From Rhodothermales bacterium (GTDB lineage Bacteria; Bacteroidota; Rhodothermia; Rhodothermales; Bin80), in the NCBI GenBank assembly GCA_965219915.1, contig OZ244794.1, positions 708,322-772,321 of the forward strand: a stretch of 64,000 nucleotides of DNA, written 5' to 3'. A program made the position numbers and the translations under genes. Positions 7,225-14,932 of the stretch are shown here, piece after piece. How positions within the stretch are numbered: the stretch's first letter is position 1; the number at the start of each line of letters is the position of its first letter. The notes under the pieces are model-generated. The model had not been told where the DNA came from. It worked only from the letters and a program-made list of their open reading frames with translations, and searched no databases.

Positions 7225-8043
7225 ATGCGACTAACACCTTACGAAAAAACTGCACAGAAGGAAGTGGACGCGTGGTTGCGCGGCGATGCCTCTCTTGTTG
7301 CTCGAGCGATGGATTGGGTCATGCGTCCGGTAGACTGGGCGGTGGAGCAGGGAGTCCCAGACAGTGTCGTAGATCAAATGAGCGAAGCTATTGGCGGCTT
7401 TTTATCTAAACTCAATGATGCCACCAAGTGGGCCGTTGACTTGAGCAGCATCCAATCTGAGGCGCGAAAGCATGGCCTGGACATTGAGGATCTGGAAGAT
7501 TTACGCACCGCGTCTCTGAAAACACTGGACGCTATAGCTAGGGGGCTATTCACCCAGAATACCGTGATGGCTGCGCTCAGTGGGGGTGGGACGGGACTGG
7601 GTGGAGCAATGCTGATTGCAGCGGATATTCCACTGCTCTTCGCGATCAATCTTCATCTCATACAGCGGATTGGGGCGGCGTATGGGTTTCCGATGATGGG
7701 GCCTGAGCATGGGCCGATCGTATTGTCAATCTACAATGCGGCGGCCGCCAGTTCCCGGGAGGCCCGCAGTGGCGCCTTGCACGAAGTGGGCATAGCCGCC
7801 GCCGCGTATGCGGGTGGCAGCACTTATCAGGGTCGTGTACGTGGGGTATTTTCGGACCAGTCCAGGCATGTGCCGCGTGAGCTGGCGAAGAATCTGGTTG
7901 GACGAAAACTGTTACAGACAATCCCGTTGGCCGGTGCAGCGGTCGGTGCAGGTGTTAACTATTGGTTCACGAGAGAGACCGCCCAAACGTCTTACATGTT
8001 GTTTCGGGCGCTCTATTTGGAGCACAAAGACCGCCTTCAATAG
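7225..8043 (+). CDS. EcsC-family protein
   Basis: 272 aa. LTPYEKTAQKEVDAWL.., GGTGLGGAMLIAADIPLLFAINLHLIQRIGAAYGF and GRKLLQTIPLAGAAVGAGVNYWFT are collinear with the EcsC family (B. subtilis EcsC layout). Confidence 0.8.
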   Translation: MRLTPYEKTAQKEVDAWLRGDASLVARAMDWVMRPVDWAVEQGVPDSVVDQMSEAIGGFLSKLNDATKWAVDLSSIQSEARKHGLDIEDLEDLRTASLKTLDAIARGLFTQNTVMAALSGGGTGLGGAMLIAADIPLLFAINLHLIQRIGAAYGFPMMGPEHGPIVLSIYNAAAASSREARSGALHEVGIAAAAYAGGSTYQGRVRGVFSDQSRHVPRELAKNLVGRKLLQTIPLAGAAVGAGVNYWFTRETAQTSYMLFRALYLEHKDRLQ

Positions 8044-8675
8044 CCACATATTGAGGCCCCCTAGGCTACAACTATGAAATAGGGGGACTTTCGATATTGC
8101 ATCGCGGCCAATTCCTCTATTGCAGATAGTATGCCCCTTGCGGGCCGCTTGATTCTGCTGCTACTGGTTCGACAACTCAAGTTTCTTCGCTAACCATCCT
8201 CACACTTCCGGCCATTCCTCTTGGATGGATCGGCGTGGTCCGTTGGGTTATGACGTTGCTAGAGGTGATTTCGTTGGCCGGAATCGCGCTCGATAGTGCG
8301 ACAGGTCTCATTGATCGGATTCAAATTGAGGTTGACGAGAATAGCCTCGCTCCGGGGAGGGCCGACACATAAGCCGCTCAGCAAATGTTTCGGTCGATCA
8401 AGTCAACCACCGCGGTTGGTGGACTGCTTAGTCTGTGGCTGGCTTGCGATTCCCCGTTCCTATCTGAAGCGGTTGCGATCTTGTTTGGAGTGGCGTTCGC
8501 CTCCGTCTTTGCCCTCTGTTCGTACCGGCATTCAATTGTCTGCTGTTCCACGGGCACTCCCATAAGACTGCAAAGCCGTTGGCCGTACTCGTCGGCATAT
8601 TAACAGCAATGATGCCCACGGAACCACACACGATGCTGAATTCAACTCCCAAACGAACCAGAGAATATCCTTCAA

Positions 8676-9029
8676 CTAATGATTACTTGGCAAAATCAGT
8701 TCTTCTTTAAGCCAGACAGCCAACTCCTCAAGCGACATGTCTCCGCGAGCAACGGCAGTGATGACTCCTACCATGGCTTCAGGGTCCACCGTCGTGTCAT
8801 ACCCACTTCTGCGAATAAGCAAAACGGCTAGATAAAGAGCTGTTCGTTTGTTCCCATCCACAAACCCATGGTTTGAAACGATTCCGTGAATCAGAGCAGC
8901 AGTTTTTTCGTGAAGGGACTCGAAATATCCGTGATACGGGCGTGCCAGTGCGGAACGAATGGCATGTTCGTTCAGGATTCCAGGTGCTCCGCCATCAACA
9001 AGTGCTTCATCGTGGGCACGAATCGAATC
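8676..9029 (-). pseudogene. doc: Doc (death-on-curing) / Fic-family toxin, apparently 5'-frameshifted
   Basis: The minus-strand frame reads DSIRAHDEALVDGGAPGILNEHAIRSALARPYHGYFESLHEKTAALIHGIVSNHGFVDGNKRTALYLAVLLIRRSGY..., which contains the Fic motif HxFxDGNKR. An in-frame TAG lies at 9032-9030. The only suitable ATG (9036-9034, reading ATG GTA G|GAT TCG ATT) is one base out of frame. The ORF track reports only the 61-aa tail, whose start falls inside the Fic motif. Confidence 0.7.
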
Positions 9030-9054
9030 CTACCATGCGATGAGGTAGTGAGTT

Positions 9055-9261
9055 TTACAGATCTGCCAACATCTCCATGGCCTTCCTATGCTTGACCGAG
9101 GTTTCTTTGATGATCCTTTCAGAAATCGGGCATACTTTCAAGCCCGATTCGTGGGTCGTAGAAACCACAGGCTTCGGCGTATCATCTTTTGAAGCTGGCT
9201 TGACCTTGTCCGGCCGCAAGCCAGGGGGCTGATGAGTTTTAGCTGTCATGAAGATTTCCAC
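9055..9261 (-). CDS. Putative antitoxin partner of Doc (family not recognised)
   Basis: 68-aa ORF ending 18 nt upstream of the Doc-associated ATG on the same strand. The assignment rests on position only. The N-terminus is low complexity and Pro/Lys-rich. Confidence 0.35.
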   Translation of the reverse strand: MEIFMTAKTHQPPGLRPDKVKPASKDDTPKPVVSTTHESGLKVCPISERIIKETSVKHRKAMEMLADL

Positions 9262-9445
9262 ATTGGGCTACTCCAAGCGTGCTACGCGTGCTATTTTGCA
9301 TGGTTTCAACCCCCCTAACAACGCAACAAAGTAGACCATCTAGAAAATCCCCCGTCTGTTGTAACACATGATCGGATGACGTGAAGGGGGCCTCACCAAA
9401 ATTGGGCGTCTCCTATGCCAGGGGCTCACGCTTGAAAATAATTGG

Positions 9446-9554
9446 TAACGAATGATGCAAGGATAATCAAGTTGCCAAATACGTGAGGGGTAGTTACCTT
9501 TGAGTTTTTTAGCAAACGGTGCCGCGCATTTTCAGGCTCCATTCTGAGTTCAGT
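9446..9554. repeat. Degenerate ~110-bp direct repeat, copy 1 (upstream of the antitoxin/doc cassette)
   Basis: Shares collinear blocks with 10316..10431: aacgaat; ataatcaagtt (11/11); tacgtgaggg vs tacgtcaggg; and the core gcgcattttcaggctccattctgagttcagt vs gcgcattttcaggcaccattcttggctcagt (27/31). Confidence 0.75.
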
Positions 9555-9689
9555 AAGCTAATTAACGCTATGCAACTACGATATCCGGCACCTGGGTATG
9601 GACGTATCAAGATGGGAGTGATTATACGCTTATAAAGGCGAAGGCGAATTCTCTTTGATCTCCTTCTCGACATCCAAAATCACCTTTCG

Positions 9690-10274
9690 CTAATCTCCAA
9701 AACTGCATTTGTGCGGAGAGAGTTTTAAAAGAGAACTCAAACCAATCGTTTTTTGCCGAGGTACCTCTCGATCCAGAACTTTAGTAGCAATGACATAAAA
9801 GTCCCATTTGTTCATGTCAAGGCATTCAAGAGAGTTCTCACCCTCAAACACACAGAAAACATAGATGTCAGCCCAGCGCCTTTTTTCTTCATTGAACTTA
9901 TTGGTTTCTGCGTTCCAGCTCCCGCTAGGTGCTATCCCAAATTGGATCGTGGAAGGCTTATCCTGTTTCCATGACTGACTATATGCCGCAGACTTCACTT
10001 CTATTGACGTACCAGATAGCATGCGAATATCACACTCATCCCACGCCCTCTTTATTTCTTTGTGGAGTTCCAGTGCCGCCGCAACGAGAAACTCGGCAAG
10101 ATCTCCTCGAGTTGTATTATCAGAAAGCATGGAACCCGACCAGCGCCAATAGTCAATCAATTGGAGCTTCGGCATGACTTTCTGCCCGCGAAACGGCTCT
10201 TTACCAGTAAGCAGTTCAGCTTTGTGCTGGGATAGTCCATCATTCATGAGTTCTCTTTCGCTTGTATGTGCCAA
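9690..10274 (-). CDS. Hypothetical protein with PD-(D/E)xK-like nuclease motif
   Basis: 194-aa ORF. The candidate catalytic arrangement is ...WDECDIRM(x6)SIEVKS..., i.e. D...(E)xK spacing, preceded by the helix GDLAEFLVAAAL. I did not recognise a named family. Confidence 0.45.
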   Translation of the reverse strand: MAHTSERELMNDGLSQHKAELLTGKEPFRGQKVMPKLQLIDYWRWSGSMLSDNTTRGDLAEFLVAAALELHKEIKRAWDECDIRMLSGTSIEVKSAAYSQSWKQDKPSTIQFGIAPSGSWNAETNKFNEEKRRWADIYVFCVFEGENSLECLDMNKWDFYVIATKVLDREVPRQKTIGLSSLLKLSPHKCSFGD

Positions 10275-10315
10275 TAATTGCTTTTCTGATTGGGATCCAC
10301 TATCGCGAATATACG

Positions 10316-10431
10316 CAACGAATCAAGGCAAGAATAATCAAGTTTATCAAGTACGTCAGGGTTGTTAATTTTGCTACAAATGAACGTAGCTCATGCTGCA
10401 GCGCATTTTCAGGCACCATTCTTGGCTCAGT
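10316..10431. repeat. Degenerate ~110-bp direct repeat, copy 2 (upstream of the PD-(D/E)xK-like gene)
   Basis: See copy 1 for the shared blocks. The core occupies 10401..10431 here and 9524..9554 in copy 1. Confidence 0.75.
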
Positions 10432-10623
10432 GACCTTGGACATGCTTGAAGGATGACAATCCAAATAGACAACAGCTGATCACATTGGAGATCTTCATAT
10501 TCGAGTTTGCGCGAGATTGCGCACTGTAAATGGTGTATATTCTGTGCGCAACGGCAGCCCGTGATCTTGTGATAAGTAAGTCGTGAGAAGCTCAGACCGG
10601 AGCTAGATAAGTTTTGGGATACT

Positions 10624-11940
10624 ATGGCACTTGTTGCGATCGTTGGCCGTCCGAATGTGGGGAAGTCCACGCTGTTTAATCGATTGACGGAATCGCGTCA
10701 GGCAATTGTCCATGACGCGCCCGGCGTTACGCGGGATCGAGTCTATGGCGATGTTATCTGGAATGGAAAGGAGTTTGCACTTGTGGATACGGGAGGGTAC
10801 GTGCCGCGGAGTGCGGATCGGTTTGAGCGTGCGATACGCGAACAGGTTCAGATCGCGCTAACAGAAGCGGACATCGTTCTACTGATCACAGACGTCACGG
10901 CAGGCGTGACCGACCTGGATCAGGAAATGGCACGGATGCTCCGACGAAGCAATAAGCCAGTGTTCGTTGTTGCGAATAAAGCCGATAACGAAAAGCGCCA
11001 GTGGGAAGCAGCATCCATGTACAGTCTGGGACTAGGCGAAGTCTATCCCGTGAGTGCAACGAACGGGATGGGCACAGGTGATTTTCTGGATGCGGTTGTT
11101 GAAGCACTGCCCGAGGACGAACATGGTGAGGATGACCGCGGGGTGAGGATTGCGCTCATAGGAAGGCCGAATGTAGGAAAGTCCCAGCTCACGAACACGC
11201 TGCTGCAACAGGAACGCTCTATCGTGACGGAGATCAGCGGCACAACGAGGGACGCCATTGACGCGGAGCTGACCTACAAGGGAGAGGCTATCACATTGGT
11301 TGATACGGCTGGATTGAGGCGGCGGACCAAGGTTCGTGAGAATGTGGAATTCTACGCCACACTGCGTACAGAACGCGCGATTCGTAGTTGCGATGTTGCA
11401 GTACTGCTTTTGGATGCCACGGTGGGACTGGAAGCCCAGGATATAAATGTTCTCAAGGAAGCGGAAATACTAAAAAAAGGTCTGGTGATTGTTGTTAACA
11501 AATGGGACCTGGTTGAAAAGGAAACAAACACTGCCCGAGACACTGAACGTGCGATCCAGGAGCGTCTGAAAACGCTCGATTACGTTCCGGTCCTGTTTGT
11601 TTCTGCACTTACAGGCAAGCGTGCGCATCGGGTGCTGGATGTTTGCCTGGAGATAATGCGCAATGCGGCATATCGCGTGCCAACATCTGAACTCAATCAA
11701 ACGGTGCAGCAATCAATTGGGCGCTATCATCCTCCCACTTGGCGTGGGCGGTATGTTCAGATCAAGTATGTAACTCAAGTCGGGGTATCTCCGCCACTCT
11801 TTGCTTTTTTCTGCAATCATCCCCAAGGTGTTGGGACGGCTTATTCCCGTTATCTCGAAAACCAGCTTCGCAAAGCGTATGGCTTCTTGGGGGTTCCGAT
11901 TACCCTGGCTTTTCGGCGTAAATCTCCAGAAGACGAATAA
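10624..11940 (+). CDS. der: Ribosome-biogenesis GTPase Der (EngA)
   Basis: 438 aa with two tandem GTPase domains ([12 protein letters not shown] and [28 protein letters not shown]) and a KH-like C-terminus. Confidence 0.95.
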
Positions 11941-14855: not shown

Positions 14856-14932
14856 GGGCTCTTAGCTCAGTGGTTTAGAGCGCTCGCCTCACACGCGAGA
14901 GGTCACAGGTTCGAATCCCGTAGGGCCCACCA
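14856..14932 (+). tRNA. tRNA-Val (anticodon CAC), CCA encoded
   Basis: Hand-folded cloverleaf. Acceptor is gggctct/agggccc (one G-U pair). D arm is gctc-agtggttta-gagc. Anticodon arm is ctcgc-ctCACac-gcgag. T arm is acagg-ttcgaat-cccgt. The discriminator is A, followed by CCA. Confidence 0.9.

What the first reader, a model, noticed from the sequence alone, without database searches (positions are those of the whole stretch)
9446..10431. A ~110-bp degenerate direct repeat precedes both minus-strand cassettes in the ecsC-der islet
Segments 9446-9554 and 10316-10431 share ordered blocks:
- aacgaat;
- ataatcaagtt;
- tacgt(g/c)aggg;
- a 31-nt core, gcgcattttcagg.. , with 27/31 identity.

Each copy lies upstream, in the minus-strand sense, of a cassette. 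Copy 1 is ~185 nt before the antitoxin/doc start. Copy 2 is ~40 nt before the PD-(D/E)xK-like gene start.

Read on the coding strand, the core is GAATGG(A/T)GCCTGAAAATGCGC, which contains an SD-like GGAG/GGTG plus an ATG that opens only a tiny ORF.

Possible explanations are a duplicated promoter or leader, cassette boundary sites (attC-like, in a CALIN-type array without an integrase), or a small MITE. None of the annotated features explains the repeat.
Basis: seen in the sequence. Interest (0 to 1): 0.6.

Follow-up and report, generated by a model that had tools for sequence, protein, structure and literature searches.

The report
Old duplicated upstream segment in defence islet
The two look-alike stretches are real, but they are an old, purely local duplication of about 150 bases of non-coding DNA next to two small toxin/nuclease genes, not a mobile element, an integron site or a structured RNA, so the feature is ordinary.

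Summary
The repeat is real. Copy c1 (9447-9554) aligns with copy c2 (10317-10431) at 83/107 identity, score 61 against 16.6±2.2 for shuffles. A profile built with orthologues extends the homology to about 165 nt (9419-9584 and 10292-10461).

Both copies sit at orthologous positions in at least three other Rhodothermaceae MAG lineages (Der about 95% identical). They cluster by paralogue, so there was one duplication before those lineages split.

A more distant relative (L097) has the nuclease gene with c2 only, and no doc block. Its homology with the window ends exactly at the nuclease-side edge of c1. So c1 is the terminal piece of a roughly 2.1-kb block (c1, antitoxin, doc).

I found no further copies in the 64-kb window, 922 kb of related loci, or pattern scans of public collections. 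There is no conserved fold, covariation, Rfam hit, terminal inverted repeat, attC core site or conserved small ORF.

c2 is conserved slightly above local synonymous sites and keeps a promoter-like site facing the nuclease gene. c1 drifts at about the synonymous rate and has lost that site.

Best reading: a scar of stacking two cassettes at a variable ecsC-der hotspot. c2 is probably the nuclease gene's promoter region and c1 is mostly a relic. Interest is low.

The parts
9419..9584 (-). Copy c1 of the repeat. The best-aligned part is 9447-9554. It is the nuclease-proximal end of the block c1, ~170-nt spacer, antitoxin, doc.
   Evidence: define the copy. Orthologous copies are in L008, L009, L011 and L012. 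Homology with L097/L099 stops at about 9557, the edge of c1.
10292..10461 (-). Copy c2 of the repeat. The best-aligned part is 10317-10431. It lies in the divergent intergenic region between the nuclease-like gene and der.
   Evidence: define the copy. Orthologous copies are in L007, L008, L009, L011, L012 and L097/L098.
10341..10368 (-). Sigma-70-like site TTAACA-16-TAAACT, preceded by TG, inside c2 and pointing at the nuclease-like gene. This is a candidate promoter and is inferred only.
   Evidence: The same site is at the orthologous position in L012 and L008. It is not found in L097 or in any c1 copy.
9630..10247 (-). Solitary PD-(D/E)xK restriction-endonuclease-like gene. It is 205 aa in relatives. 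Here an in-frame TAG at 9690-9692 cuts off the last 20 residues.
   Evidence: Homologues are about 205 aa. The AF2 model has pLDDT 91. Top PDB fold matches are NhoI, the Eco15I N-domain, PvuII, EcoRV and I-Ssp6803I.
9055..9261 (-). Antitoxin-like small ORF of 64-68 aa, directly upstream of doc. It matches no known family.
   Evidence: It is conserved in relatives, with 0.85 of columns invariant.
8676..9062 (-). doc (death-on-curing, Fic family) toxin gene with an in-frame TAG at 9030-9032.
   Evidence: One search shows the TAG. It matches Pfam Fic and TIGR01550 at 2e-17 on the L012 version. The TAG is shared with L008/L009; L012 has GAC there.
10462..10623 (+). der-proximal upstream region, contiguous with c2 in all lineages that have c2.
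   Evidence: In L097 a 219-aa gene plus GmrSD is inserted inside this region.
7225..8043 (+). ecsC, the left anchor of the variable islet.
   Evidence: Pfam EcsC at 6.6e-44.
10624..11940 (+). der (EngA GTPase), the right anchor of the islet.

Best explanation
**What it is**
- The two segments are paralogous copies of one non-coding stretch of about 150-165 bp.
- A single local duplication produced them, before the sampled sister lineages split.
- c2 is part of the divergent intergenic region between a solitary PD-(D/E)xK nuclease gene and der.
- c1 is the terminal piece of a roughly 2.1-kb block (c1, ~170-nt spacer, antitoxin, doc) lying on the other side of the nuclease gene.

**Most likely history (inferred)**
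- Two alternative cassettes each abutted the same der-proximal flank at a variable ecsC-der hotspot.
- An illegitimate or unequal recombination event stacked them in tandem and left one copy of the flank in front of each cassette.

**Function (inferred)**
- c2 carries the promoter and 5' leader of the nuclease gene.
- c1 is largely a decaying relic, at most a weak far-upstream promoter for antitoxin-doc.

**What it is not**
It is not a mobile element, an integron attC site, a coding sequence or a structured RNA.
For: **Shown: the repeat and its age**
- The repeat is far beyond chance.
- Both copies are at orthologous positions in L008, L009/L010, L011 and L012. c2 is also in L007, whose contig ends before the c1 position.
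- Copies group by paralogue, with 99.7% bootstrap for the c1 clade. Paralogue identity is about 0.70, against 0.84-0.88 for c2 orthologues and 0.72-0.79 for c1 orthologues.

**Shown: c1 belongs to the doc block**
- L097/L098 (EcsC 91%) have the nuclease gene with c2 only, and no doc.
- Their homology with the window ends at about 9557, the edge of c1. L008 differs from L097 by a clean 2113-nt block ending in c1.

**Shown: the repeat does not travel with the nuclease gene**
- More distant nuclease homologues (62-76% aa) sit alone between housekeeping genes.
- None of them has the repeat.

**Shown: the ecsC-der interval is variable**
- ecsC and der are adjacent in L017.
- L097 has GmrSD in the interval.
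- L105/L106 have a TerB, ATPase and helicase set.
- L102-L104 have an RND operon.

**Shown: conservation**
- Four-fold-site identity in der and the nuclease gene is 0.70-0.78.
- Three-lineage invariance is 0.78 for c2 and 0.66 for c1. Four-fold sites give 0.61-0.73 in the adjacent genes.
- c2 contains a 28-nt invariant run.

**Shown: promoter-like site**
TTAACA-16/17-TAAACT is retained in c2 of three lineages and faces the nuclease gene.

**Shown: negatives**
- No fold signal, covariation or Rfam hit.
- No 3-base periodicity, and orthologues differ by indels of 1, 2 and 4 nt.
- The small ORF is broken in L008.
Against: - The promoter role of c2 rests on a consensus match. Such matches are no more frequent than in shuffles in any single scan, and the match is absent in L097.
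- The organism may use Bacteroidota-type promoters instead. TAnnTTTG is enriched in intergenic DNA of the window, 12 seen against about 5.5 expected. A TAnnCTTG motif is kept in 9 of 10 copies including c1, so c1 could still be active.
- Conservation of c2 (0.84-0.88) lies inside the range of four-fold-site identity across neighbouring genes, which reaches 0.87-0.91 in nuoI and bacA. The evidence for constraint is therefore modest.
- The order of events cannot be rooted with these data. Either the doc block with c1 was inserted, or it was lost in the L097 lineage.
- The rest of the 3.55-Mb source genome could not be scanned for further copies.
Confidence: 0.65

Rival explanations
1. Both copies are functional: a duplicated promoter/operator that places the nuclease gene and the antitoxin-doc operon under the same regulator or sigma factor.
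For: - Both copies lie upstream of, and in the same orientation as, a cassette.
- The A/T-rich block AACTTGATTATYCTTGC, which contains TAnnCTTG, is identical or nearly so in 9 of 10 copies.
- TAnnTTTG and TAnnCTTG are enriched in intergenic DNA of the window.
Against: - c1 orthologues diverge at the local synonymous rate (0.72-0.79 against 0.70-0.78).
- In L012 c1 the 17-mer has two substitutions and a deletion.
- c1 lacks the sigma-70-like -10 hexamer in all lineages.
- c1 ends about 170 nt before the antitoxin start, which has its own conserved proximal sequence.
- No -33-type TTTG lies at the right spacing, from reading the sequence.
Confidence: 0.2
2. Cassette-boundary recombination site: an attC- or attI-like site, or a landing pad, at which defence cassettes are inserted or stacked by a site-specific recombinase.
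For: - The edge of c1 coincides with the breakpoint between two islet architectures.
- The copies bracket the nuclease gene.
- The ecsC-der interval is a variable hotspot.
Against: - No hairpin potential (z between -0.24 and +0.60) and no covariation.
- No RYYYAAC or GTTRRRY sites.
- No copy after doc.
- No recombinase gene within about 6 kb on either side.
- In L097 the new genes (219 aa plus GmrSD) are inserted inside the der upstream region, not at c, and no new c copy was made.
- Distant homologues of the nuclease gene have no such site.
- A breakpoint at the edge of the homology is expected for any duplication junction.
Confidence: 0.06
3. A small non-autonomous mobile element (MITE-like) that inserted twice.
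For: The size (about 110-165 bp) and intergenic location fit. Short inverted repeats exist inside single copies.
Against: - Those inverted repeats differ between c1 and c2 and are not kept in orthologues.
- No target-site duplication is visible at the junctions.
- Only two copies occur in 64 kb, and none beyond the orthologous ones in 922 kb of loci.
- There are 0 hits in the JGI metagenome and IMG/VR pattern scans. The species-representative genomes gave only core-length hits of 21-24 nt, which look like chance.
- The copies are 30% diverged and fixed at the same sites in all sister lineages.
Confidence: 0.03
4. A structured cis-regulatory RNA or small RNA, or a leader peptide, encoded in each copy.
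For: The core holds an ATG preceded by a GGAG/GGTG-like motif in the window. A local hairpin GCTAC-N8-GTAGC exists in c2.
Against: - RNAalifold consensus energy is -2.8 and -4.7 kcal/mol on the two strands, with 0 compensatory pairs.
- Fold z-scores are about 0.
- No Rfam match even at E<=1.
- The hairpin is deleted in c1 of the window and L008, and weakened without compensation in L012 c2.
- The ORF has a premature TGA in L008 c2, no ATG in L008 c1 and a frame-shifting deletion in L097. There is no codon periodicity.
Confidence: 0.03

Closest known systems
Paralogous (duplicated) upstream or promoter segments created by segmental duplication or unequal recombination in variable genomic islets
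   Same: - Two co-oriented copies, each in front of a different gene set.
- One origin, and the copies cluster by paralogue.
- One copy is conserved and the other is drifting.
- The homology ends at a rearrangement breakpoint.
   Different: Promoter activity has not been shown for either copy. The element has no relatives outside this small clade of Rhodothermaceae MAGs.
Integron attC sites and CALIN arrays
   Same: Short repeated sequences lie between co-oriented small, promoterless-looking cassettes (toxin-antitoxin, nuclease), and there is no integrase nearby.
   Different: - No imperfect palindrome or hairpin.
- No R''/R' core sites.
- No copy after the last cassette.
- Sequence rather than structure is what is shared.
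- Only two copies.
MITEs and REP-like intergenic repeats
   Same: Size of about 110-165 bp, and intergenic location.
   Different: No terminal inverted repeats, no target duplication and no dispersed copies found. The positions are orthologously fixed and the copies are old and diverged.
Defence-island hotspots between conserved core genes
   Same: In relatives the ecsC-der interval holds different defence-type genes. These include doc with its antitoxin, a solitary NhoI/PvuII-like nuclease, GmrSD, and a TerB, ATPase and helicase set.
   Different: This describes the context of the repeat, not the repeat itself. No integrase or tRNA anchor is present at the site.

Membership tests
Integron attC site | Imperfect inverted repeats (R''-L'' / L'-R') that fold one strand into a hairpin | tested here: not met
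   Fold z-scores lie between -0.24 and +0.60 on both strands of both copies. The consensus folds are weak with no covariation. Internal inverted repeats are 10-15 nt and not shared between copies.
Integron attC site | Conserved core sites RYYYAAC and GTTRRRY at the two ends | tested here: not met
   Neither motif occurs in either copy plus about 20-25 nt of flank, on either strand.
Integron attC site | One site downstream of every cassette in a co-oriented array | tested here: not met
   c1 follows the nuclease gene, but no copy follows doc (8044-8675). This region instead holds a remnant of an RND transporter gene.
MITE | Terminal inverted repeats flanked by a target-site duplication | tested here: not met
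   No inverted repeat is shared by the ends of c1 and c2. No direct repeat is seen at the block junctions.
MITE | Multiple dispersed copies in the genome | tested here: inconclusive
   Only two copies occur in the 64-kb window. None beyond the orthologous sites occur in 922 kb of loci. Public pattern scans were negative or gave hits that look like chance. The rest of the 3.55-Mb source genome could not be searched.
Known RNA family (Rfam 15) | Match to a curated covariance model | tested here: not met
   Only a tRNA at 14856-14929 passes gathering scores in the window. There is no match at E<=1 in 8000-10700.
Bacterial promoter (sigma-70 type) | -35 and -10 hexamers at 16-18 nt spacing, correctly placed and oriented upstream of the gene | tested here: inconclusive
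   c2 has TTAACA-16-TGaTAAACT facing the nuclease gene, kept in L008 and L012. It is lost in L097 and absent from c1. The number of such sites does not exceed shuffles. No transcript data are available.
Bacteroidota-type promoter (-33 TTTG / -7 TAnnTTTG) | TAnnTTTG about 7 nt before the start site, with TTTG about 19-21 nt upstream | tested here: inconclusive
   TAnnCTTG is kept in 9 of 10 copies, and TAnnTTTG is enriched in intergenic DNA of the window. No TTTG lies at the expected spacing, from reading the sequence. Promoter usage in this clade is not documented in the searched literature.
Type II toxin-antitoxin module (phd/doc type) | Small antitoxin gene directly upstream of a Doc/Fic toxin gene | tested here: met
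   Doc matches TIGR01550 at 2e-17 and Pfam Fic. A 64-68-aa ORF ends 4-7 nt before the doc frame. The antitoxin itself matches no family. doc carries an in-frame TAG here.
PD-(D/E)xK restriction endonuclease fold (the gene between the copies) | Alpha/beta core with D...(D/E)xK catalytic motif | tested here: met
   D73, E83 and K85 (P0001 numbering) are invariant or nearly so in 41 homologues. The AF2 model has pLDDT 91. Foldseek top hits are NhoI, Eco15I-N, PvuII, EcoRV and I-Ssp6803I, with E from 2e-4 upward and TM 0.35-0.54.

The most novel reading that the evidence does not exclude
The c segment is a conserved landing pad with an outward-facing promoter on the der side of a defence-gene hotspot. 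Incoming cassettes are joined to it, and stacking cassettes duplicates it. The locus would then behave like an integrase-less counterpart of an integron platform.
Probability: 0.07. Interest if true: 0.55.

Novelty: new member of a known kind. Interest (0 to 1): 0.15.

Why it matters
It matters little beyond this locus. The analysis shows that the repeat is a historical scar, and that the scar helps reconstruct how a small defence/toxin islet between ecsC and der was assembled in sponge-metagenome Rhodothermaceae. It removes the more exciting readings (integron-like array, MITE, regulatory RNA). If c2 is the nuclease gene's promoter, it could guide expression studies of this uncharacterised family of solitary NhoI/PvuII-like nucleases.

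Tried and rejected
**Scans for more copies**
- An exact-pattern scan of 185,579 species-representative genomes with the 21-nt core gave four hits of 21-24 nt. They lie in unrelated taxa with no flanking similarity, so they look like chance. The pattern was too specific to match even the known relatives, so the scan says little about them.
- A gapped two-block pattern gave 0 hits in the JGI metagenomes and in IMG/VR.
- blastn of 8600-10480 against the plasmid and phage collections gave no match.
- An nhmmer profile of 10 copies, run against the window plus 106 loci, found only the orthologous copies.

**RNA and coding tests**
- Rfam gave nothing at gathering thresholds or at E<=1.
- RNAalifold on both strands and single-sequence folds showed no structure.
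- The small-ORF or leader-peptide idea was rejected. The ORF is broken in orthologues and shows no codon periodicity.

**Does the repeat travel with the nuclease gene?**
This was rejected: L013, L014 and L016 lack it.

**Search for an empty site holding a single copy and no cassette**
- None was found.
- L017 has ecsC and der adjacent, but its 250-nt spacer is unrelated.
- L100-L106 are rearranged, or have other genes after ecsC.

**Other**
- Literature searches for promoter consensus in Rhodothermus found nothing.
- PADLOC and NCBIfam gave no family for the nuclease or the antitoxin.

Full report
**Observation**

A local alignment of 9400-9600 against 10275-10475 returns c1 9447-9554 and c2 10317-10431. 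There are 83 matches in 107 ungapped columns and a score of 61. One thousand dinucleotide shuffles gave 16.6±2.2, with a maximum of 26. The 22-nt core GCGCATTTTCAGGCWCCATTCT occurs only at these two places in the 64-kb window, even with 3 mismatches allowed, and none is expected by chance. When orthologous copies from related genomes are added, the homology extends to about 165 nt. An nhmmer profile hits window 9419-9584 and 10292-10461.

**Genes around the repeat**

- ecsC is at 7225-8043 (+) and der is at 10624-11940 (+).
- All genes between them are on the minus strand.
- doc is at 8676-~9062. It matches Fic/TIGR01550 and has an in-frame TAG at 9030-9032.
- A 64-68-aa antitoxin-like ORF is at 9055-9261.
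- A third gene has homologues of about 205 aa that start at MNDGLSQ, the ATG at 10247.
  - In the window this gene carries an in-frame TAG at 9690-9692. Nineteen further homologous codons follow, up to TAA at 9630-9632.
  - Its AlphaFold model (pLDDT 91) most resembles the methyl-dependent nucleases NhoI and Eco15I-N, then PvuII, EcoRV and I-Ssp6803I.
- The D...ExK residues are conserved.
- On the coding strand, c2 lies about 45-70 nt upstream of this gene.
- c1 lies about 60 nt downstream of the gene's original stop and 170-200 nt upstream of the antitoxin ORF.

**Source and relatives**

The window is identical to part of a 3.55-Mb contig of an ENA metagenome assembly (checked). Four related lineages of Rhodothermaceae MAGs have Der 94.5-95% and EcsC 96-97% identical to the window. 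They carry the same islet in the same place.
- Both copies are at the orthologous positions in L008, L009/L010, L011 and L012.
- c2 is also in L007, whose contig ends before the c1 position.
- The copies group by paralogue, not by genome. Bootstrap support for the c1 clade is 99.7%.
- Paralogue identity is about 0.70. Orthologue identity is 0.84-0.88 for c2 and 0.72-0.79 for c1.
- So there was one duplication, older than the split of these lineages, and no recent gene conversion or transposition.

**What the wider comparison shows**

- In L097/L098 (EcsC 91%) the islet reads ecsC, nuclease gene, c2, part of the der upstream region, a 219-aa gene plus GmrSD, then der. There is no doc and no c1.
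- Homology between that lineage and the window runs from the 3' end of the nuclease gene to window position about 9557 and stops there. That position is the nuclease-proximal edge of the c1-c2 homology.
- L008 differs from L097 by a clean 2113-nt block holding a 179-aa gene, doc, the antitoxin, a spacer and c1. L097 has 39 nt in its place. No direct repeat is seen at the junctions.
- c1 is therefore the terminal part of the doc block.
- More distant homologues of the nuclease gene (62-76% aa) sit alone between housekeeping genes and have no trace of the repeat. The repeat does not travel with that gene.
- The DNA downstream of ecsC is variable in the family.
  - ecsC and der are adjacent in L017, with an unrelated 250-nt spacer.
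  - L105/L106 have a TerB, ATPase and helicase set.
  - L102-L104 have an RND operon.
  - L101 has an ISL3 element.

**Tests of the exotic readings**

*Structured RNA*
- RNAalifold gives -2.8 and -4.7 kcal/mol on the two strands, with no compensatory pair.
- Single-sequence fold z-scores lie between -0.24 and +0.60.
- Rfam has no match even at E<=1.

*attC*
- There is no hairpin.
- There are no RYYYAAC or GTTRRRY sites.
- No copy follows doc.
- No recombinase gene lies within about 6 kb.

*MITE*
- Internal inverted repeats are short, differ between the copies and are not kept in orthologues.
- An nhmmer profile found no further copies in the window or in 922 kb of loci.
- A gapped pattern gave 0 hits in the JGI metagenomes and IMG/VR.
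- The core gave only hits of 21-24 nt, which look like chance, in the species-representative genomes.
- Plasmid and phage collections gave nothing.
- The remainder of the source genome could not be scanned. This is the main gap.

*Coding sequence or leader peptide*
- The ORF opened by the ATG in the core has a premature TGA in L008 c2.
- It has no ATG in L008 c1, and a 1-nt deletion in L097.
- Substitutions show no 3-base periodicity, and orthologues differ by indels of 1, 2 and 4 nt.

**Selection**

- Four-fold-site identity between the window and its relatives is 0.72-0.78 in der and 0.70-0.78 in the nuclease gene. It is higher in nuoI and bacA, at 0.82-0.91.
- Invariance across three lineages is 0.78 for c2 and 0.66 for c1. 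Four-fold sites give 0.61-0.73 in the adjacent genes and 0.72 pooled.
- c2 contains invariant runs of 28, 14 and 13 nt. The longest in c1 is 10 nt.
- c2 is therefore at or somewhat above the local neutral level, and c1 is at the neutral level.
- A sigma-70-like site, TTAACA-16/17-TAAACT, faces the nuclease gene. It is kept at the orthologous place in c2 of the window, L008 and L012. It is absent in L097 and in every c1.
- A TAnnCTTG motif, close to the Bacteroidota -7 element, is kept in 9 of 10 copies. TAnnTTTG is enriched in intergenic DNA of the window. No -33 element lies at the right spacing.
- No promoter consensus for this clade was found in the literature.

**Interpretation**

*Shown*
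- There was one old, local duplication of about 150-165 bp of non-coding DNA.
- One copy lies in the nuclease-der intergenic region. The other lies at the end of the doc block.
- The edge of the homology is a rearrangement breakpoint.
- The locus is a variable hotspot.

*Inferred*
- Two alternative cassettes that each abutted the same der-proximal flank were joined in tandem by an illegitimate or unequal exchange. A copy of the flank was left in front of each.
- c2 probably holds the promoter and leader of the nuclease gene.
- c1 is mostly a relic.

Both toxic genes carry premature TAG codons in this genome. This fits an islet in decay. The direction of the event, gain of the doc block or its loss in L097, cannot be rooted.

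**Verdict**

I rate it a new member of a known kind (a paralogous upstream segment in a variable islet) and of low interest. The most novel reading left open is a promoter-bearing landing pad for cassettes. It has no positive support beyond the breakpoint coincidence, which any duplication junction would produce.

Noticed in passing
window 9030-9032 (doc, minus strand): doc has an in-frame TAG (…LIAW*DSIRAHDEAL…) and no canonical start codon in frame before it. The same TAG is present in L008/L009, while L012 has GAC there. doc is otherwise well conserved (0.78 invariant columns). It may be a shared pseudogene, or it may be expressed from a non-canonical start downstream.
   Followed up: partly
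window 9690-9692 (nuclease-like gene, minus strand): An in-frame TAG replaces the CTG codon found in all relatives and removes the last 20 residues, a C-terminal helix in the model. The downstream 19 codons are still homologous. This change is seen only in the window genome.
   Followed up: yes
window about 8250-8560 (+): The unannotated stretch between ecsC and doc contains a C-terminal remnant of an RND (AcrB-type) transporter gene, matching residues 921-1026 at 63% aa identity. It is inverted relative to the intact gene that follows ecsC in L102-L104.
   Followed up: partly
window 10517-10551 (+), upstream of der: There is a palindrome TTGCGCAC-N19-GTGCGCAA in the der upstream region. It is conserved in L007 and partly in the other relatives, and could be an operator.
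   Followed up: no
window about 10585-10615 (+); L008 4641-4658; L012 3340-3357: A conserved hairpin (AGCTC…GAGCT) followed by GATAAGTTTT lies about 10-20 nt before the der start codon. It was flagged as terminator-like in the relatives.
   Followed up: no
L097/L098 8029-10861; L105/L106 8032-13690; L101 5360-8211; L102 3196-4545: In related MAGs the DNA next to ecsC holds different defence or mobile genes. L097/L098 have a 219-aa gene plus GmrSD inserted inside the der upstream region. L105/L106 have a TerB_N/TerB_C protein, a BrxC-like ATPase and a DEAD helicase. L101 has ISL3 transposase fragments and a NACHT-like ATPase. TnpB/Cas12f-like genes lie upstream of ecsC in L101 and L102.
   Followed up: partly
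L009 (=L010, GCA_009845435.1) antitoxin ORF, aligned to window about 9190: A poly-A run is one base longer than in L008, which shifts the frame of the antitoxin ORF. It could be an assembly error or a real frameshift.
   Followed up: no
L017 235-486: In a relative with Der 71% identical, the 250-nt ecsC-der spacer contains what looks, from the reading frame only, like a C-terminal fragment of a four-helix-bundle (23S rRNA intervening-sequence type) protein gene. That would be another small insertion at the same site.
   Followed up: no
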